UHGV virus genome: UHGV-0828925
Direction: 5' to 3' (one strand)
Origin: a virus
Length of the DNA stretch: 34,506 nucleotides
Every line of letters begins with the position of its first letter. Position 1 is the first letter of the stretch. A program made the position numbers and the translations under genes. The notes beneath the pieces are model-generated. The model worked only from the letters and a program-made list of their open reading frames with translations. It was not told the origin of the DNA and did no database searches. Below are positions 23,631 through 34,398 of this stretch, piece after piece.

Positions 23631-24815
23631 TCAGGCCAATTCATCATTCACTCCCTGCGGCGGTTCTGGTAGCAGCATCCAGTACAAGGCGTTCCCTAAC
23701 CACGATAAAGTGCCGTCGCTCAACTCCACGTATTCCCCTTGTACCTGTCCTGCCATATACTCGCCGTGCTTTGAATAAATTAAAACCCAATCGTCTTGAG
23801 CGGGAATTCGCTCACTACAGCTTATCCAGGCATCCAGAGTTACCTGAGAATTGCCATTTACCAAGTCAGCTCGAACATATAGCGTGTCATCATGGTGCTG
23901 ATTGTGGCTGCACCACGTTAATTCGCTTAACTCGCCATCTTCTGGCCATACTCCAGCTGTTTGCAGCCAGATATGGGCTGGCGCATCCTGGCAAGGTGTA
24001 TTAACTGGAAACTTGTAAGTTTGGCTTACAGGTTGGCTACCCTGAAGCATGGCAGCGTGGCAGGCATACTCAACGCCCTTAACTGCATCTGCGCAGTAGT
24101 TATAGCGATTGCATTCCACTAATTTCCGTTTGAGTTTTTCAATTGCCTGCGCGACATCAGCCTGTATTACAGGAACTGGCGGAACGGCTGTTTGCTCTCG
24201 AACGTCATTAGTCGCTATCGGTTCTGCTGCCAACTGACTGGCATATTTGTTAATGGTAACGATAAGCTCTTGCTCAGCCTCATCCAGACAATCACCGATA
24301 CCTCGCCTGTCACCGTCAAAATCATCGAAATCGGCACGAATCTTGGCAACCTTCAGGATTGCGGACAACACCTCACTAGGAATTACCGGATAGTTGGTTG
24401 ACGTTTCCGCGATTTCCCGAAAATTATTGGTTGACGAATTCTTATTTTCCCGAAAGTTTCCGGACTGAAGCATGGCGGCGCGGCAGGCGTTCCAGCCATC
24501 TGCGTAACAATCTCTGTGTGTCTTGAAATATGTCACCGCCCTTGGTACATCGTTTACGTCTATTTCATCCGGCACAACCGGCGCAGGTGAGTCAGCATAA
24601 ACAGGAATAACGTCCGGTTGCTCTTTATTGCTTTCATCCGTTAAAGCCCAGAATAATTTCCCGGCCGGATGTTTGAAAATATAAGCAACTGGATCTGCTT
24701 CCAGCGATGCCAGTGCAATTTCATAAGCACGGCGCTCAATATTGTCTCGAACGTCCAAGCTGCCTATGCGCTCTTTGATTTCTTTAATCAGTTCTTTGTC
24801 GGTGAAAGTGGTCAT
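23631..24815 (-). CDS. Hypothetical protein with internal duplication and DUF551-like C-terminal domain
   Basis: 394 aa; two similar Cys-containing segments (DCYADGWNACRAAMLQSG... and NYCADAVKGVEYACHAAMLQGS...); C-terminal W..SERIP...DGTLSWLGNALYWMLLPEPP pattern typical of DUF551 as I recall it. Confidence 0.65.
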   Translation of the reverse strand: MTTFTDKELIKEIKERIGSLDVRDNIERRAYEIALASLEADPVAYIFKHPAGKLFWALTDESNKEQPDVIPVYADSPAPVVPDEIDVNDVPRAVTYFKTHRDCYADGWNACRAAMLQSGNFRENKNSSTNNFREIAETSTNYPVIPSEVLSAILKVAKIRADFDDFDGDRRGIGDCLDEAEQELIVTINKYASQLAAEPIATNDVREQTAVPPVPVIQADVAQAIEKLKRKLVECNRYNYCADAVKGVEYACHAAMLQGSQPVSQTYKFPVNTPCQDAPAHIWLQTAGVWPEDGELSELTWCSHNQHHDDTLYVRADLVNGNSQVTLDAWISCSERIPAQDDWVLIYSKHGEYMAGQVQGEYVELSDGTLSWLGNALYWMLLPEPPQGVNDELA

Positions 24816-30136: not shown

Positions 30137-30436
30137 TCAAATAAGTGGTTTGCTGCCTAATTTCATTTTCTGGCGACCAACACAAGTCACACCCATTTCA
30201 CTGCGTGGCTTGCTGTAGTAAATACGGTTCTGTTTACGCTCGACTTCTTCTGCCTTCTTGCAGCGAAGGCTTCCGAGTGATGCTGCTTTATCTGCTCTGA
30301 CGCAACCAGAGAGCTTTAGCGCAATTTTTCGCGCCAGTCGCTGCTCTTGCATTGCCTGTTCACGTTGAGTCTGTCTGCGTGCTCTGCGGCGATTTCTGGC
30401 GTTATCGTCAGCCAGATATGTAATGACTACTGTCAT
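30137..30436 (-). CDS. N: N-like transcription antiterminator
   Basis: 99 aa; arginine-rich motif NARNRRRARRQTQREQ near the N-terminus; C-terminus ...ERKQNRIYYSKPRSEMGVTCVGRQKMKLGSKPLI resembles lambda N (...RTWYSKPGERGITCSGRQKIKGKSIPLI); GGAGG SD. Confidence 0.8.
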   Translation of the reverse strand: MTVVITYLADDNARNRRRARRQTQREQAMQEQRLARKIALKLSGCVRADKAASLGSLRCKKAEEVERKQNRIYYSKPRSEMGVTCVGRQKMKLGSKPLI

Positions 30437-31085
30437 GTTGACCTCCGATGAAACAACTTTGGAATTTTTTTATTACAAAGTGGTTTCCTTCCCCGCCAAT
30501 TAGACGGGGATGGAAGAGCATTTATGAGCCTTCATGGACTCTGCTCGATCAGTTCTATTTAATTAATCTCTCAACTGAATGTAAGTATTCACATAAATCC
30601 TCCTACCTCTTGTGCAGCTTTCTTGAATATGGTGGCGGCTGCATAACGCCTATGGAATTGACTTTGGCGATTGGATGGCCGGTGCTGAACTCCGGCTTAC
30701 TGGTTAGAGCGCCCGCACTACCAGTGACGCTGTCTTGAGGCGCAGATTGGTTACTGCTTGCCATGAGCGCTGTTTATACATTGGTCGAGCATCAGCCTGC
30801 TCATTCATCCAATCACAAAGCCAACTACTCTTTGACTCACACTCTCGCAGTGAGCGCGCTCATGCCATTGAGTCTCTGCCGCTTCATCGCCGCTGATAAC
30901 CGGTGCGCGTCTGGCATTCGCGCTGCTTTACCGGAGCTACTTTTAATATATTGACCCTAACCCGATGCTAAGCAGGCTCGCTCAATGGCGACTCAGGGCA
31001 GTATCATTACTGCTGCATTGCCTTTCGGCTGCGGTCTAACCGCGTTAGTGCACCATTACGGCACCTCCTGTTTGGTTAAACTCAG

Positions 31086-31127
31086 TTCCCGCATTTCGGC
31101 GGGACAATCCCATCAATGTTAAAGAGC
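31086..31127 (-). promoter_or_regulatory. nutL: nutL (boxA + boxB)
   Basis: On the minus strand: boxA GCTCTTTAACA, then boxB hairpin TCCCGC-CGAAAT-GCGGGA; same boxA/boxB as nutR. Confidence 0.7.
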
Positions 31128-31173
31128 CTGCCAAGCTGTTCCGTTTGGCTACCAGCGTCCTGCTGATGGCTAA

Positions 31174-31260
31174 AGAATACTGTAGGTATTTTATTGTGTA
31201 AATACCCAAGGTATTTATTTTTGGTGAAATAATGATAAGCAAATGAATACAAAGGATATT
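31174..31260 (-). promoter_or_regulatory. OL operators and pL promoter
   Basis: Three AATAC-N5-(G/A)TATT sites at 31176..31190, 31201..31215, 31246..31260; minus-strand -35 TTTACA / 17 bp / -10 TATTCT overlapping the first site. Confidence 0.6.
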
Positions 31261-31347
31261 TATTTTTTTCGGTGTCTGCTTGTTCAGTGCTTTTTATGCG
31301 GGATATGTGAAGTGGATCCCGATAGCTATTGCTGCCGGGATTATGGG

Positions 31348-31716
31348 TTAGTCAGCGAAGGTTAAGACGAGAATTACCTTAATGATGTCTGCTACAACAG
31401 ACACGGCCATAGATAAACCAAAGACAATCCAAGCCATAGAGATGTCTTCACTACCATCGTATAGAGTTCCGTAATCACTGGTGTAAGGCGTAAATGTCGC
31501 GCCTTGATACAATAGGTATAAGCTTGATCCATAGAGGAAAAATGCAGATATCCCTTGTATTGCCATGATCACCAGAATCATGAAACGAGCTGATCTATGC
31601 GCCCAAGCCTGGCTTATTTTTTCTGATAGAGATTTCGCAATAAAAGCATGCGCTAAGCCGTAAATTGTCGAGATTGCCAACATCCCAAAAAAGCTTGCTA
31701 TAGCGGTTCCAACCAT
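31348..31716 (-). CDS. Four-helix membrane protein co-transcribed with cI (rex-position accessory gene)
   Basis: About 122 aa from ATG with AAGGGG SD 18 nt after the cI stop (track ORF 31348..31737 starts with TTG); four hydrophobic segments. Confidence 0.7.
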   Translation of the reverse strand: MVGTAIASFFGMLAISTIYGLAHAFIAKSLSEKISQAWAHRSARFMILVIMAIQGISAFFLYGSSLYLLYQGATFTPYTSDYGTLYDGSEDISMAWIVFGLSMAVSVVADIIKVILVLTFAD

Positions 31717-31733
31717 AAGCGCCCCTTGCGTGA

Positions 31734-32450
31734 TCAAACCAGCCTTAGTTTTGTCTCAATTGCAACGCCTATAATCTTGCAGTTTCCATTGATTGGCACG
31801 AGAGGCCATGCAGGATTAAGCCCCTTGAGGTATTTATTTCCGCCGTCGATTATCAGCTTCTTGAATGTTGCTTCGTTAGAGTCAGAAAGTTTTGCTATGA
31901 CCAAGCTGCCGTTGATCGCCTCCCTTCCGGTATCGAAAAGAACGAATGTTCCCTCTGGAATGCTTAACCCAACCGGTGCCGTCATTGAATCACCTTCCAC
32001 TTTAAGCCAGAACGCATTACCTTGAATATGCGCGTCAGACTCAAGCCAAACATCTATGTCTTTAATGGTGTATGGTTCGCATGCTTCACACCACGAGCCA
32101 GCCTGGATACTGCTTAACACCGGATACCTCTTTCCTGCTCTGTATTCCCCTGCATACCTTACGTTGGCATCGCTCTTAAGGCTTTCTGCCTGTTCTGCAA
32201 CCTTGGCAGCAATTGACTGGCTAAAATCAGCAATTGAGACTTGCAACAATCGTGCAAAACCAGATGCAACCTCAACGTTTAGCGCATTTCTGCCATTAAG
32301 ATAATGCCCTACCGCTCCTTGGGTGATACCCAGTTCATCAGCGATTGAGTATTGGGTTATTCCCAATTCTTTCTTTTTTGACTCATACAAAGCCTTAAGC
32401 CGCTTAGCGTCTTCCAGCTGTTCTGTCGTCAGTGATTTTTTATTTTCCAT
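31734..32450 (-). CDS. cI: CI-type prophage repressor (HTH + S24 LexA-like autocleavage domain)
   Basis: 238 aa; N-terminal LTTEQLEDAKRLKALYESKKKELGITQYSIADELGITQGAVGHYLNG (lambda-cI-like HTH); C-terminal FWLKVEGDSMTAPVGLSIPEGTFVLFD...ATFKKLIIDGGNKYLKGLNP (S24 Ser/Lys dyad region). Confidence 0.92.
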   Translation of the reverse strand: MENKKSLTTEQLEDAKRLKALYESKKKELGITQYSIADELGITQGAVGHYLNGRNALNVEVASGFARLLQVSIADFSQSIAAKVAEQAESLKSDANVRYAGEYRAGKRYPVLSSIQAGSWCEACEPYTIKDIDVWLESDAHIQGNAFWLKVEGDSMTAPVGLSIPEGTFVLFDTGREAINGSLVIAKLSDSNEATFKKLIIDGGNKYLKGLNPAWPLVPINGNCKIIGVAIETKLRLV

Positions 32451-32461
32451 AGCTTAATTCT

Positions 32462-32527
32462 AATAGCTAAGGTACTTAAACTAAAAATACCCTGAGTATT
32501 GATTGCTTTGAATACCTGTAGTATTCT
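32462..32527. promoter_or_regulatory. OR operators with pR and pRM
   Basis: Sites AATAGCTAAGGTACT (32462..32476), AATACCCTGAGTATT (32486..32500), AATACCTGTAGTATT (32511..32525); pR -35 TTGATT (32499..32504), 17-bp spacer, -10 TATTCT (32522..32527). Confidence 0.65.
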
Positions 32528-32556
32528 TTGTTCATGGTTAATAACGGAGAGTGCAT

Positions 32557-32751
32557 ATGATTCGAATGACACTTGCCGATTACGCCAAAATCCATGGACA
32601 GGCTAAAGCAGCCAGTGACTTTGGTGTAATCCAGTGCGCTATCAGCAAGGCCATTCTGGCAGGCCGTAACATTATGGTTACGGTAAAGCCTGATGGCAGT
32701 GTGATTGGAGAGGAAGTTCGTCCTTTCCCAAGCAACAAGAAAAACAAATAG
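32557..32751 (+). CDS. cro: Cro-like repressor
   Basis: 64 aa from ATG with GGAGA SD (track ORF starts 6 nt earlier at GTG); ...KDYA.. / [28 protein letters not shown]...[13 protein letters not shown] parallels lambda Cro. Confidence 0.85.
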
Positions 32752-32757
32752 TAACAA

Positions 32758-32802
32758 CGCTCTTTAACAGTCATGGTCCTCATTCCCGCCGAAATGCGGG
32801 AA
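32758..32802 (+). promoter_or_regulatory. nutR: nutR (boxA + boxB)
   Basis: boxA CGCTCTTTAACA at 32758..32769; boxB hairpin TTCCCGC-CGAAAT-GCGGGAA at 32783..32802; followed by hairpin GCGCAT-AAGTTG-ATGCGC (tR1 region). Confidence 0.7.
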
Positions 32803-32859
32803 TACAACGCGCATAAGTTGATGCGCATAACTTCTTATTTGTTAAGGAAATACTTACAT

Positions 32860-33153
32860 ATGGTTCGTGCAAACAAACGCAACGAGGCTCTAAGAATCGA
32901 GAGTGCGTTGCTTAACAAAATCGCAATGCTTGGAACTGAGAAGACAGCGGAAGCTGTGGGAGTTGATAAGTCGCAGATCAGCAGGTGGAAGAGGGACTGG
33001 ATTCCAAAGTTCTCAATGCTGCTTGCTGTTCTTGAATGGGGTGTCGTCGAAGACGACATGGCTCGATTGGCACGACAAGTTGCTTCGATTCTCACCAATA
33101 AAAAACGCCCGGCGGCAACCGAGCGTTCTGAACAAATCCAGATGGAATTTTAA
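32860..33153 (+). CDS. cII: CII transcriptional activator (lambda-like)
   Basis: 97 aa MVRANKRNEALRIESALLNKIAMLGTEKTAEAVGVDKSQISRWKRDWIPKFSMLLAVLEWGVV...; TAAGGAAATACTTACAT-ATG upstream as in lambda; internal start of track ORF 32773..33153. Confidence 0.92.
   Translation: MVRANKRNEALRIESALLNKIAMLGTEKTAEAVGVDKSQISRWKRDWIPKFSMLLAVLEWGVVEDDMARLARQVASILTNKKRPAATERSEQIQMEF
32870..32883 (-). promoter_or_regulatory. CII-binding repeat of pRE (TTGC-N6-TTGC) antisense within the cII 5' end
   Basis: Minus-strand TTGCGTTTGTTTGC directly read at the start of cII, as in lambda pRE. Confidence 0.65.
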
Positions 33154-33450: not shown

Positions 33451-34398
33451 ATGAGCAATACAGCAAAAATCTACGATTTCAGCGCCGCACACGAGCGCAG
33501 GAGCAACAGGATGGAGAACCAGAAAACTGGTTACATTCCGTTGTACCGGAGCATTCTGAAACAGTCATGGGCGAAAGATGTTTATCTTCGCACCCTGTGG
33601 GAAAACCTTCTCCTGAATGCCGCCAGAAAGCCATACAAAGCGAATTTCAAAGGTCATGAATGGCATCTGCAACCCGGTCAACTGGTTGTGACAGCAGCTG
33701 ATTTAGGTCTTCAGTTATGCGACAGACATGGCAAGCCAGCAAGCCGTGATCAGGTTGAGCGGATGCTTCAGGTTTTTGTGAAAGAGGGGATGATCTCCAT
33801 TGATGGAGAGAAGCAAAAAGGTCGTGTGATAACCATCACAAATTACCATGAATATGCTCAAAAAATGGACAATTTACCCGCACATGAAGCCGCACAAACA
33901 ACCGCACATGATGCCGCACATGGCGAAGCCAGTAATGGCGCGGCTTTCAGCGCACATGCCGCACATGAAAGCGCACATGAAGCCGCACAAACAACCGCAC
34001 ATCATGAACAAGAAGGTATTAACAAGAATATAAATAATACCCCCCTACCCCCCAATGGGGGCGGCGATGGGCAGGTTAAACCTGAACGTCGCAAGGCAGA
34101 ACGAATCGACTACGAATCCTTCCTGAACGCCTACAACACCGAAGTCGGTGACAGACTGCCACACGCTGTTGCGGTCAACGAGAAACGCAAACGCCGCCTG
34201 AAGAAAATCATCCCGCAACTGAAAACGCCAAACGTGGACGGTTTCAGAGCGTATGTCAGGGCGTTTGTGCATCAGGCCAAGCCGTTTTACTTCGGAGACA
34301 ACGACACGGGCTGGACGGCAGATTTTGATTACCTGCTGAGGGAAGATTCGTTAACGGGAGTTCGGGAAGGGAAGTTTGCAGACAGGGGGATTGCATGA
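33451..34398 (+). CDS. O: Replication initiator (O-like) containing the origin iterons
   Basis: 315 aa; N-terminus [10 protein letters not shown] parallels lambda O (MTNTAKILNF); internal low-complexity [10 protein letters not shown] repeats encoded by DNA iterons; stop overlaps the next gene's ATG. Confidence 0.85.
33878..34055 (+). repeat. ori: Replication origin: iterons (C/G)CGCACATG repeated at least 7 times, followed by an AT-rich tract
   Basis: CCGCACATG / GCGCACATG units between 33878 and 34010, then AACAAGAATATAAATAATA and a C-run; same organisation as lambda ori inside O. Confidence 0.7.

What the first reader, a model, noticed from the sequence alone, without database searches (positions are those of the whole stretch)
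31174..32527. Immunity specificity defined by AATAC-N5-GTATT operators, with a lambda-like cI scaffold
Three 15-bp sites of this consensus occur in OR and three in OL, each overlapping a -10 TATTCT element. The repressor resembles lambda cI in its leader and C-terminal domain but differs in the recognition helix region, and Cro differs likewise. This fixes the immunity type from sequence alone.
Basis: seen in the sequence. Interest (0 to 1): 0.45.

Follow-up and report, generated by a model that had tools for sequence, protein, structure and literature searches.

The report
Known HK620-type phage immunity switch
This is the repressor/operator control region of a temperate E. coli phage, a lambda-style genetic switch whose binding sites are real, but it is the already catalogued HK620/mEpX2 immunity type, so the finding is correct and ordinary.

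Summary
The six AATAC-N5-GTATT sites exist as described. Four are perfect (OL1, OL2, OR2, OR1), one has one mismatch (distal OL) and one has two (OR3). They are the six best motif scores in the 34.5-kb window.

The region is 98.6-99.2% identical to the immunity regions of HK620, mEpX2, HK630, HK140, HF4s and some Stx2 phages. It occurs in 146 of 5,426 complete E. coli genomes. GenBank AF335538 (HK620) already annotates OL1-3, OR1-3, pL and pR. cI is identical to that of mEpX2 and one residue from HK620's. Cro is identical to HK620's.

Twenty-five diverged relatives from other genera that keep the same cI recognition helix keep the same sites at the same positions. Relatives sharing only the C-terminal domain lack them.

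The architecture mirrors lambda. pR and pL are overlapped by OR1/OR2 and OL1/OL2. pRM lies under OR3, abuts OR2 and predicts a leaderless cI mRNA.

- TATTCT overlaps only OR1 and OL1.
- The C-terminal domain and helix 3 are closer to phage L c2 than to lambda cI.
- Phage L uses near-identical half-sites, so the consensus alone does not fix the immunity type.

One small addition: the distal OL site, 45 bp from OL2, fits the motif far better than the GenBank OL3. No binding was tested.

The parts
31174..31202 (-). pL early leftward promoter: -35 TTTACA (31202-31197), 17-bp spacer, -10 TATTCT (31179-31174)
   Evidence: Found by the promoter scan. Coincides with the pL annotated in HK620. The -10 overlaps OL1, and the -35 lies between OL1 and OL2, overlapping OL2 by 2 bp.
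31176..31190 (.). OL1 operator, AATACTGTAGGTATT (perfect match)
   Evidence: Scores 18.9 bits with the matrix from relatives. Lies inside HK620 OL1. Invariant in 15 copies.
31201..31215 (.). OL2 operator, AATACCCAAGGTATT (perfect match), 25 bp from OL1
   Evidence: Scores 20.7 bits. Lies inside HK620 OL2. The 24-25-bp OL1-OL2 spacing is kept in the 21 relatives where both OL sites were found.
31246..31260 (.). Candidate OL3, AATACAAAGGATATT (1 mismatch), 45 bp from OL2. Not the OL3 of the HK620 GenBank record.
   Evidence: Scores 9.9 bits, sixth best in the window. Local chance is 0.9%. A palindromic site at the same 45-bp offset occurs in L011, L012, L013, L063 and L030. The HK620 record places terminator tIMM here, but the hairpin folds at only -0.6 kcal/mol and 43 of 200 shuffles fold as well.
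31348..31716 (-). hkaS, a 122-aa hydrophobic protein between cI and OL (the position of rexAB in lambda), presumably co-transcribed with cI
   Evidence: ORF. Annotated as hkaS in HK620. Matches PHROG 6534, function unknown. No PADLOC hit.
31734..32450 (-). cI repressor, 238 aa: HTH_3 N-terminal domain (helix 3 = QGAVGHYLN, residues 44-52) and S24 autopeptidase C-terminal domain (Ala117-Gly118, Ser155, Lys197/198)
   Evidence: Pfam Peptidase_S24 84.6 bits and HTH_3 39 bits. 43% identical to lambda cI; PDB 3bdn E = 2.9e-52. Identical to mEpX2 cI and one residue (A66T) from HK620 cI.
32457..32485 (-). Predicted pRM: -10 TAGAAT (32462-32457), ending 6 nt before the A of the cI ATG, which predicts a leaderless mRNA; weak -35 TTTAGT (32485-32480) directly abutting OR2
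   Evidence: Read from the sequence. A TAnnAT hexamer 6 nt before the ATG and fused to the OR3 half-site is present in 23 of the 26 loci; the three Microbulbifer loci have AACCTC or AATCTC there. Promoter activity is inferred, not tested.
32462..32476 (.). OR3 operator, AATAGCTAAGGTACT (2 mismatches), a weak site over the pRM spacer and -10
   Evidence: Scores 12.7 bits, rank 5. Lies inside HK620 OR3. An imperfect site sits at -25 to -27 from the cI ATG in 21 of 25 relatives.
32486..32500 (.). OR2 operator, AATACCCTGAGTATT (perfect match)
   Evidence: Scores 20.2 bits. Lies inside HK620 OR2. Sits at -49 to -51 from the cI ATG in 23 of the 25 relatives.
32511..32525 (.). OR1 operator, AATACCTGTAGTATT (perfect match)
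   Evidence: Scores 17.5 bits. Lies inside HK620 OR1. Sits at -72 to -76 from the cI ATG in all 25 relatives.
32499..32527 (+). pR early rightward promoter: -35 TTGATT (32499-32504), 17-bp spacer, -10 TATTCT (32522-32527)
   Evidence: Read from the sequence. Coincides with the pR annotated in HK620. The -35 overlaps OR2 by 2 bp and the -10 overlaps OR1 by 4 bp.
32557..32751 (+). cro, 64 aa, lambda-Cro family; recognition helix [12 protein letters not shown]
   Evidence: Pfam Cro PF09048, 91.3 bits against a cut-off of 32.7. 63% identical to lambda Cro; PDB 1cop E = 4.7e-19. Identical to HK620 Cro.

Best explanation
Window 31174-32751 is the immunity module (OL/pL, hkaS, cI, OR with pRM and pR, cro) of the HK620/mEpX2 immunity type. 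It sits in a P22-like mosaic phage or prophage of E. coli and works as a lambda-style bistable switch.

**Inferred mechanism.**
- cI dimers bind the 15-bp palindromes AATACY-N3-RGTATT.
- Occupancy of OR1 and OR2 blocks pR (TTGATT-17-TATTCT). Occupancy of OL1 and OL2 blocks pL (TTTACA-17-TATTCT).
- cI at OR2 abuts the weak -35 of pRM and probably activates it. pRM would give a leaderless cI(-hkaS) mRNA.
- The weak OR3 lies over the pRM spacer and -10. It serves for negative autoregulation by cI and for Cro-mediated shut-off of cI synthesis.
- A lambda-fold Cro reads the same sites.
- Induction is by RecA-stimulated self-cleavage of cI at Ala117-Gly118, using the Ser155/Lys dyad.
- A third, weak OL site most likely lies at 31246-31260, 45 bp from OL2, rather than at the position given in the HK620 GenBank record.

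**Shown here:** the sites, their non-random occurrence, their co-inheritance with the cI recognition helix across genera, the promoter geometry, the domain and catalytic-residue conservation, and identity to catalogued phages.

**Inferred:** binding itself, the order of affinities, cooperativity, activation of pRM, and the leaderless start.
For: **Identity.**
- The region is 98.6-99.2% identical over all 1,701 bases to HF4s, mEpX2, phi296/phi367, HZ41, HK620, HK630, HK140, two Stx2c phages and 611R6.
- It is present in 146 of 5,426 complete E. coli genomes.
- All six sites are identical to those of HK620 and mEpX2. cI is identical to mEpX2's and Cro to HK620's.
- The HK620 record annotates OL1, OL2, OR1-3, pL and pR at the same places.

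**Sites.**
- Enrichment beyond chance, and the top six motif scores in the window.

**Comparative footprint.**
- 25 loci from Lelliottia, Siccibacter, Enterobacter, Tatumella, Lonsdalea, Serratia, Pantoea, Providencia, Proteus, Yersinia, Pectobacterium, Scandinavium, Kluyvera and Microbulbifer encode cI 43-76% identical with helix [TS]QGAVGHY.
- OR1 sits at -72 to -76 from the cI ATG in all 25, OR2 at -49 to -51 in 23, and OR3 at -25 to -27 in 21. OL1 and OL2 are 24-25 bp apart in the 21 loci where both were found. No other site with up to 1 mismatch occurs anywhere in those 2.6-5.8-kb loci.
- Nearly all of the 55 loci that share only the C-terminal domain have no such site; a few have one isolated match or related variants such as TATAC-N5-GTATA.
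- The spacer is free while the half-sites are fixed.
- A pRM -10 hexamer lies 6 nt before the cI ATG in 23 of the 26 loci, all but the three Microbulbifer loci.

**Population constraint.** 1 of 90 site positions varies against 19 of 196 other non-coding positions.

**Proteins.** Pfam S24, HTH_3 and Cro domains. Lambda cI and lambda Cro are the best solved-structure matches, with the Ala-Gly, Ser and Lys motifs aligned.

**Experiment in the literature.** mEpX2, which has an identical cI, is described as belonging to an immunity group separate from lambda, HK022, phi80 and others. It was kept in triple lysogens with lambda and HK022 (PMC3442831).
Against: - No binding, footprinting or transcript mapping exists for this repressor family in anything I could search. 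The primary HK620 paper (Clark et al. 2001) is not held.
- OR3 and the distal OL site are weak matches and are individually not far from chance.
- The 45-bp OL3 arrangement occurs in one clade (window, L011, L012, L013, L063) plus L030, so it represents about two independent events. Its right half-site is poorly kept in that clade.
- It overlaps a conserved A-tract element that is also present in relatives whose third site is elsewhere, so that conservation may have another cause.
Confidence: 0.9

Rival explanations
1. The distal palindrome at 31246-31260 is not an operator. OL has only two functional operators, as reported for 933W, or the third is where GenBank places it (31222-31238). On this view the distal sequence is conserved for another reason: the end of the cI-hkaS transcript (tIMM), or an A-tract, UP-like or IHF element upstream of pL.
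For: - The HK620 record annotates tIMM here and OL3 at 31222-31238.
- An A-rich element (AAAAATAAATTCCCTT on the cI-sense strand) sits about 70 bp upstream of OL1 in most Enterobacterales relatives. This includes relatives whose third site is 21 or 30 bp from OL2 and where the element has no right half-site.
- The site scores only 9.9 bits, and about 1.1 hits of that strength are expected per shuffled window.
- 933W is reported to lack an OL3 (PMC3317979).
Against: - The GenBank OL3 scores -29.9 bits (rank 11,213) and carries a common G/A polymorphism at 31224 (8 G against 7 A).
- The proposed tIMM hairpin folds at -0.6 kcal/mol, no better than shuffles.
- Loci without a site at 21 or 30 bp are the ones in which the distal element is a two-sided palindrome. 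The exceptions are Yersinia L020/L021 and Kluyvera L030, which also carry a weak 2-mismatch site closer to OL2. In L030 the distal site is a perfect AATACTATGCGTATT at the same 45-bp offset.
- The local chance of a site with up to 1 mismatch is 0.9%.
- The distal site is invariant in 15 copies, although that test has low power.
Confidence: 0.35
2. The immunity specificity is not unique to this module. Because helix 3 and the outer half-site (A-A/G-T-A-C) are shared with phage L c2 and some Stx1-phage repressors, those repressors cross-repress these operators. The true immunity group would then be broader than HK620/mEpX2.
For: - Helix 3 is QGAVGHYLN here, QGAIGHWLN in phage L c2 and QGGIGHWLR in the cI of Stx1 phage AP005153.
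- Phage L OL sites read AATACaaaatGTACT twice and AATACtatgtGTATG once. Its OR1 reads AGTACgaaatGTATT.
- The Stx1 phage has AGTACatattGTATT and AGTACgatatGTACT.
Against: - Position 6 of the 15-mer is C or T in 98% of HK620-type half-sites, but A in the phage L and Stx1-phage sites.
- The flanking protein segments differ. This cI has a lambda-like N-terminal arm (14/20 identical to lambda, 3/20 to L) and the post-helix loop NGRNALN, against NGRREPS in L.
- The Cro proteins are unrelated; BLASTP finds no alignment.
- No cross-immunity data exist either way.
Confidence: 0.12
3. The repeated palindromes are chance features of AT-rich intergenic DNA, or are bound by some other protein, and the repressor acts elsewhere.
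For: Only that no binding experiment exists. At up to 2 mismatches the motif is only marginally enriched window-wide: 21 matches against 14.3 expected, and 2 of 100 shuffles reach 21.
Against: - Four perfect copies sit exactly at the promoter-overlapping positions.
- Position and half-sites are conserved cross-genus, with free spacers, strictly alongside the cI recognition helix.
- Polymorphism is reduced within the sites.
Confidence: 0.02

Closest known systems
Immunity region of coliphage HK620 (GenBank AF335538; Clark et al. 2001) and of mEpX2, HK630, HK140 and HF4s
   Same: - 98.7-99.2% nucleotide identity across OL, hkaS, cI, OR and cro.
- All six motif sites are identical.
- cI is identical to mEpX2's and one residue from HK620's. 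Cro is identical to HK620's.
- The same pL, pR, OL1, OL2 and OR1-3 are annotated.
   Different: - There are only scattered substitutions outside the sites.
- The window's other modules differ, as expected for a mosaic.
- My reading of OL3 (31246-31260) differs from the HK620 record (31222-31238).
Phage lambda immunity region (cI, OR1-3, OL1-3, pRM, pR, pL, Cro)
   Same: - Same gene order, with tripartite OR and OL.
- OR2 is centred about 43 bp and OR3 about 19 bp upstream of the cI ATG, and a leaderless cI mRNA is predicted. The lambda values for comparison are from my own knowledge, not a tool.
- cI is 43% identical, with a conserved N-terminal arm and helix 1, Ala-Gly site and Ser/Lys dyad. 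Cro is 63% identical and in the same Pfam family.
   Different: - The operator sequence differs: AATACY-N3-RGTATT here. No lambda-type operator lies in the immunity region; the single 3-mismatch match in the window is at 24531-24547, about 6.6 kb away.
- cI helix 3 is QGAVGHYLN against QSGVGALFN. The Cro helix differs at S28C, N31S and H35L.
- hkaS replaces rexAB.
- The third OL site is 45 bp from OL2.
- mEpX2, with the same cI, is heteroimmune to lambda.
Salmonella phage L c2 repressor and its operators (also the cI of Stx1-converting phage AP005153)
   Same: - Helix 3 is nearly identical to phage L's (7 of 9 residues). The C-terminal domain is 55% identical to L c2.
- Operators are 15-bp palindromes with the outer half-site A-(A/G)-T-A-C. 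OL1-OL2 spacing is 25 bp.
   Different: - Those repressors have no lambda-like N-terminal arm and a different post-helix loop.
- The inner operator position is A rather than C/T.
- The Cro protein is unrelated.
- The host differs (Salmonella).
Phage 933W repressor and operators (Koudelka laboratory; PMC3317979)
   Same: A lambdoid repressor that recognises a 15-bp site made of two symmetric blocks about a central base pair, with the central bases weakly specified.
   Different: - The 933W half-site differs: G, A, A, C at positions 2-5 according to the paper.
- 933W is reported to lack OL3 and cooperative binding. None of this is known for the HK620 type.

Membership tests
HK620/mEpX2 immunity group | Repressor (cI) of the same sequence, especially the DNA-binding domain | tested here: met
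   238/238 identical to mEpX2 cI and 237/238 to HK620 cI (A66T, outside helix 3).
HK620/mEpX2 immunity group | Same Cro | tested here: met
   64/64 identical to HK620 Cro. The same protein accession, WP_000620665.1, appears in all five E. coli genome copies fetched.
HK620/mEpX2 immunity group | Same operator sequences at OR and OL | tested here: met
   No difference from HK620 or mEpX2 in any of the six sites. Across 15 copies there is one C-to-T change, at the degenerate position 6 of OL2.
HK620/mEpX2 immunity group | Homoimmunity in vivo: the phage does not grow on HK620 or mEpX2 lysogens and vice versa | not testable with these tools
   Needs plating tests.
Lambda-type (LexA-like) CI repressors | N-terminal helix-turn-helix domain plus C-terminal S24 autopeptidase domain | tested here: met
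   HTH_3 39 bits (cut-off 23) and Peptidase_S24 84.6 bits (cut-off 23.3). Full-length match to lambda repressor 3bdn, E = 2.9e-52.
Lambda-type (LexA-like) CI repressors | Ala-Gly cleavage site and Ser/Lys catalytic dyad | tested here: met
   IQAGSW aligns with lambda VQAGMF, EGDSMTAP with EGNSMTAP, and TFKKLI with TFKKLI. The positions are Ala117-Gly118, Ser155 and Lys197/198.
Lambda-type (LexA-like) CI repressors | RecA-stimulated self-cleavage (SOS inducibility) | not testable with these tools
   Inferred from the conserved residues only.
Lambda Cro family (Pfam PF09048) | Sequence match above the curated threshold over the whole domain | tested here: met
   91.3 bits against a cut-off of 32.7, covering profile positions 1-59 of 59. 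63% identical to lambda Cro.
Lambda-style tripartite divergent switch | Three operators between divergent cI and cro: OR1 and OR2 over pR, OR3 over pRM, plus a second operator set over pL | tested here: met
   Geometry read from the sequence. It is largely conserved across the 26 loci: OR1 in all, OR2 absent in 2, OR3 absent in 4, and the pRM -10 absent in the 3 Microbulbifer loci. Occupancy and regulation are inferred.
Immunity lambda (imm-lambda) | Lambda operator consensus TATCACCGCCAGTGGTA at OR and OL, and lambda helix-3 residues | tested here: not met
   No lambda-type site lies in the immunity region; the single 3-mismatch hit is at 24531-24547, about 6.6 kb away. Helix 3 differs at 5 of 9 residues. 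mEpX2 is in a separate immunity group (PMC3442831).
Immunity of phage L (imm-L) | Same repressor DNA-binding domain, same Cro and same operators | tested here: not met
   - Helix 3 is similar, but the rest of the N-terminal domain is not: 3/20, 8/22 and 7/37 identical in the flanking segments.
- Cro is unrelated.
- Operators differ at the inner position and in one half-site (GTACT).
- Functional cross-reaction was not tested.

The most novel reading that the evidence does not exclude
Two small additions would go beyond the database record, if true.

1. In the HK620 immunity type the third leftward operator lies 45 bp from OL2 (31246-31260), inside a conserved A-tract element. The OL3 and tIMM features of the GenBank record would then be misassigned.

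2. The repressor's DNA-binding domain is effectively a chimera: a lambda-like N-terminal arm, helix 1 and post-helix loop, carrying a phage-L-type recognition helix. Its operator is correspondingly hybrid, with an L-like outer ATAC and a lambda-like inner pyrimidine. That would make this widespread family (25 loci in 14 genera) a natural test set for repressor-operator recognition rules.
Probability: 0.45. Interest if true: 0.25.

Novelty: already known. Interest (0 to 1): 0.12.

Why it matters
There is little new biology here. The module was sequenced and its operators annotated in 2001, and phages carrying it (mEpX2, HK620) are already treated as a distinct immunity group.

- **Practical value.** The prophage or phage in this window can be assigned to immunity type HK620/mEpX2. 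That predicts superinfection immunity relationships among the roughly 2.7% of complete E. coli genomes that carry the module, including some Stx2 phages.
- **Comparative set.** The set assembled here covers the same helix 3 and the same operators across 14 genera. The spacer sequence is free, the position of OL3 varies, and in Microbulbifer the Cro is of a different type. This is a tidy resource for anyone who wants to measure recognition rules or build orthogonal repressor/operator pairs.
- **Annotation.** It also suggests a correction to one GenBank feature, OL3 of HK620.

Tried and rejected
- **'Each site overlaps TATTCT'.** Rejected. The hexamer occurs only at OL1 and OR1.
- **HK620 GenBank OL3 (window 31222-31238) as an operator.** Rejected on motif grounds: -29.9 bits, and the best score anywhere between OL2 and the distal site is -14 bits. 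It is also polymorphic.
- **HK620 tIMM hairpin at 31236-31266, minus strand.** It folds at -0.6 kcal/mol with z = -0.55, so it is not a credible intrinsic terminator. The plus-strand version is also weak at -2.8 kcal/mol. No convincing terminator turned up between hkaS and OL: the terminator scan listed none there, and the only hairpin in the fold, at 31316-31341, is not followed by a U-run.
- **Lambda-type operators.** None in the immunity region.
- **Primary literature.** Clark et al. 2001 is not in the held library. Full-text searches for HK620 with operator, Cro, immunity or repressor, and for the motif words, returned no biochemical study of this repressor.
- **933W as the closest characterised relative.** Considered, but its half-site differs. 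The Stx1 phage AP005153 and phage L are closer in helix 3.
- **hkaS function.** PADLOC gives no hit and the PHROG family has unknown function.
- **Whole-window significance of the two weak sites.** Not significant by score alone. Their support comes from position and from the relatives.
Full report
**1. The observation**

The window contains four perfect AATAC-N5-GTATT palindromes. They are OL1 (31176-31190), OL2 (31201-31215), OR2 (32486-32500) and OR1 (32511-32525). A one-mismatch copy lies at 31246-31260 and a two-mismatch copy, OR3, at 32462-32476.

- At up to one mismatch there are five matches in 34.5 kb, all in these two clusters. The expectation is 0.80, and none of 100 shuffles reaches five.
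- TATTCT occurs in this region only at 31174-31179 (minus strand) and 32522-32527 (plus strand). It forms the -10 hexamers of pL (TTTACA-17-TATTCT) and pR (TTGATT-17-TATTCT), and overlaps only OL1 and OR1, not every site.

**2. What the region is**

- Bases 31100-32800 are 98.6-99.2% identical over their full length to the immunity regions of phages HF4s, mEpX2, phi296/phi367, HZ41, HK620, HK630, HK140, two Stx2c-converting phages and 611R6.
- These phages belong to at least four taxa: Lederbergvirus, Lambdavirus, Hendrixvirinae and Sepvirinae.
- The module is present in 146 of 5,426 complete E. coli genomes.
- The HK620 record (AF335538) already annotates N, nutL, pL, OL1-3, tIMM, hkaS, cI, OR3-OR1, pR, cro, nutR and cII.
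- All six sites are identical in the window, HK620 and mEpX2. cI equals mEpX2 cI and differs from HK620 cI by A66T. Cro is identical to HK620's.
- The rest of the window is a P22-like mosaic.
- A published study describes mEpX2 as belonging to an immunity group separate from lambda, HK022, phi80 and other mEp phages. It maintained mEpX2 in triple lysogens with lambda and HK022 (PMC3442831).

**3. Proteins**

*cI (31734-32450, minus strand, 238 aa)*
- It has HTH_3 and Peptidase_S24 domains.
- Its best solved-structure match is lambda repressor: 43% identity, E = 2.9e-52.
- The Ala-Gly cleavage site and the Ser and Lys motifs are aligned with lambda's.

Identity by segment:

| Segment of cI | vs lambda cI | vs phage L c2 |
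|---|---|---|
| Residues 1-20 | 14/20 | 3/20 |
| Residues 21-42 | 12/22 | 8/22 |
| Helix 3 plus loop (residues 43-58) | 9/16 | 10/16 |
| C-terminal domain | 54/143 | 78/143 |

- Helix 3 proper is QGAVGHYLN here, QSGVGALFN in lambda and QGAIGHWLN in phage L.
- 'Lambda-like leader, different recognition helix' is therefore right. 'Lambda-like C-terminal domain' is weaker than the resemblance to phage L c2.

*Cro (32557-32751)*
- It is a lambda-family Cro: PF09048 at 91.3 bits and 63% identity to lambda Cro.
- Its recognition helix is [12 protein letters not shown] against lambda's QSAINKAIHAGR.

**4. Are the palindromes operators? Comparative test**

A scan of one genome per bacterial species with cI returned 80 loci.

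- **Co-occurrence.** Twenty-five of them, from 14 genera, encode a cI 43-76% identical that keeps helix [TS]QGAVGHY. Each carries AATAC-N5-GTATT sites upstream of cI, and no site with up to one mismatch outside the OR and OL positions.
- **OR positions.** OR1 sits 72-76 bp upstream of the cI ATG in all 25, OR2 at 49-51 bp in 23, and OR3 at 25-27 bp in 21.
- **OL positions.** OL1 and OL2 are 24-25 bp apart in the 21 loci where both were found; four loci show one OL site or none in the sequence held. They lie at a variable distance downstream, 28 to 2,339 bp from the cI stop to the first OL site.
- **Absence.** Nearly all of the 55 loci whose repressor shares only the C-terminal domain have no such site. 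A few have one isolated match or related variants.
- **Information content.** Over 110 distinct sites it is about 1.9, 1.6, 2.0, 2.0 and 1.3 bits at A-A-T-A-C. It is 0.8 bit at position 6 (C or T) and about 0 at the three central positions. The operator is therefore AATACY-N3-RGTATT.
- **Motif ranking.** A matrix built from the relatives alone ranks the window's six sites as its top six scores.
- **Polymorphism.** Among 15 distinct E. coli and phage copies, 1 of 90 site positions is polymorphic. That change is C to T at the degenerate position 6 of OL2. By comparison, 19 of 196 other non-coding positions vary (one-sided Fisher p = 0.004).

**5. Promoter geometry and mechanism (inferred from anatomy)**

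- The pR -35 overlaps OR2 by 2 bp and its -10 overlaps OR1 by 4 bp. The pL -10 overlaps OL1, and its -35 lies between OL1 and OL2, overlapping OL2 by 2 bp.
- On the cI strand, a TAGAAT hexamer (32462-32457) ends 6 nt before the A of the cI ATG and shares one base with OR3.
- The same arrangement (GGTATT-A-n-A-A-T, then about 6 nt, then ATG) is found in 23 of the 26 loci; the three Microbulbifer loci have AACCTC or AATCTC there. This predicts a leaderless cI mRNA, as in lambda.
- The weak -35 (TTTAGT, 32485-32480) abuts OR2, so cI at OR2 is placed to activate pRM. OR3 is placed for negative autoregulation and for Cro repression of pRM.
- OR2 and OR3 are centred about 43 and 19 bp upstream of the ATG. 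From my own knowledge of lambda, this is within about 1 bp of the lambda geometry.
- The conserved cleavage site and dyad predict RecA-dependent induction.
- None of the binding or regulatory steps has been measured for this family in anything I could find.

**6. Specificity**

- Lambda-type operators are absent from the immunity region.
- Phage L has OL sites AATACaaaatGTACT (twice) and AATACtatgtGTATG, and OR1 AGTACgaaatGTATT.
- The Stx1 phage AP005153 has AGTAC-N5-GTAYT sites and helix QGGIGHWLR.
- Several loci from the scan with helix TKGAVSHW carry TATAC(R)-N3-(Y)GTATA.
- The outer core TAC...GTA is therefore shared by a wider repressor group.
- What distinguishes the HK620 type is a pyrimidine at position 6. 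It co-occurs with the lambda-like N-terminal arm and the NGRNALN loop. I offer this as inference only.
- By analogy with lambda contacts (my knowledge, not tested): Gln44 would read the A at 17-mer position 2; the Ser45-to-Gly change accompanies the changed position 4; Asn55 and the arm would read the retained inner C:G.
- Consequently the consensus alone does not fix the immunity type. Near-identity to HK620 and mEpX2 does.

**7. The third OL site**

- HK620's record puts OL3 at window 31222-31238 and a terminator, tIMM, at 31235-31265.
- The former scores -29.9 bits and is polymorphic. The latter's hairpin is no better than shuffled sequence.
- In relatives the third site lies 21 bp from OL2 (nine loci; in two of them, the Yersinia pair L020/L021, it is a 2-mismatch site alongside a weak distal one), 30 bp (L007, L008) or 45 bp (L011, L012, L013, L063 and L030, where it is perfect). 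Six loci have two OL sites only, and four have one or none in the sequence held.
- Caveats:
  - The 45-bp group is essentially one clade plus L030.
  - The right half-site is poorly kept in that clade.
  - An A-rich element (AAAAATAAATTCCCTT on the cI strand) occupies this position even in loci whose OL3 is elsewhere, so something besides cI may act here.
- I rate the distal site as a probable weak OL3, at about 0.6.

**8. Verdict**

- The object is the already catalogued HK620/mEpX2 immunity module working as a lambda-style switch. Novelty: already known. Interest: low.
- What this check added:
  - the cross-genus footprint that validates the operators;
  - the correction about TATTCT and about the C-terminal domain;
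  - the relationship of helix 3 and the half-site to phage L;
  - a suggested re-annotation of OL3.

Noticed in passing
window 31222-31238 and 31235-31265: The OL3 and tIMM features of the HK620 GenBank record map here. Neither is supported: OL3 scores -29.9 bits against the family motif and is polymorphic, and the tIMM hairpin folds at -0.6 kcal/mol. I did not find where the cI-hkaS transcript ends.
   Followed up: yes
window 31246-31272 (A-run on the minus strand); L006-L030 about 70 bp upstream of OL1: An A-rich element (AAAAATAAATTCCCTT on the cI/pL-sense strand) sits at a fixed distance from OL1 in most Enterobacterales relatives, whether or not it forms a palindrome. It could be an UP-like or IHF-related element upstream of pL, as described for lambda pL (my own knowledge). 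It remains unexplained.
   Followed up: partly
L003 2986-3250 (E. coli 2014C-3057 prophage) against window 31085-31345: A prophage with an unrelated repressor and Cro has an OL region that aligns without gaps to the window's. Identity is 85/87 in the nutL/pL leader and 61/103 through the operators, and no shuffle of 20,000 reaches that. At the same positions its operators are ATAAC-N4-GTTAT. The operator half-sites appear to have been replaced on a conserved pL scaffold.
   Followed up: partly
window 31348-31716 (-): hkaS is a 122-aa hydrophobic protein that sits where lambda has rexAB, and it is more polymorphic than cI. It matches PHROG 6534 (unknown function), with no Pfam or PADLOC hit. 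In relatives the gap from the cI stop to the first OL site ranges from 28 to 2,339 bp, so this is a variable cargo slot.
   Followed up: partly
window 31087-31104 (-) and 32782-32803 (+); boxA-like GCTCTTTAA at about 31119-31127 (-) and 32761-32769 (+): nutL and nutR carry the same boxB hairpin, CCCGC-CGAAAU-GCGGG (-10.5 and -12.5 kcal/mol). It is identical in the heteroimmune prophage L003. The N protein (30137-30436, 99 aa) has an arginine-rich N-terminus and matches PHROG 271, N-like.
   Followed up: partly
L064, L066, L067 (Microbulbifer spp.): Marine gammaproteobacterial prophages keep the same cI helix (TQGAVGHYLNGR) and AATACC-N3-GGTATT operators. The gene divergent from cI encodes a different Cro-like protein (GVTQG.VSAW..GRKK), not a lambda-fold Cro. 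The operators are the same but the lytic repressor is of a different type.
   Followed up: partly
L023, L024, L027, L032, L034; L005 (phage L); L004 (Stx1 phage AP005153): Related repressors with helix TKGAVSHW, QGAIGHW or QGGIGHW are accompanied by TATAC(R)-N3-(Y)GTATA or A(A/G)TACA-type palindromes. The helix and half-site co-vary across a wider family, which could be mined for recognition rules.
   Followed up: partly
window 32860-33153 (+) and 33451-34398 (+): cII is a lambda-family CII (Pfam Phage_CII, 161.5 bits). The adjacent replication gene is an O-type initiator (Phage_rep_O, 56.9 bits) with a histidine/alanine-rich low-complexity middle segment. The left 25 kb of the window are P22-like virion genes.
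   Followed up: no
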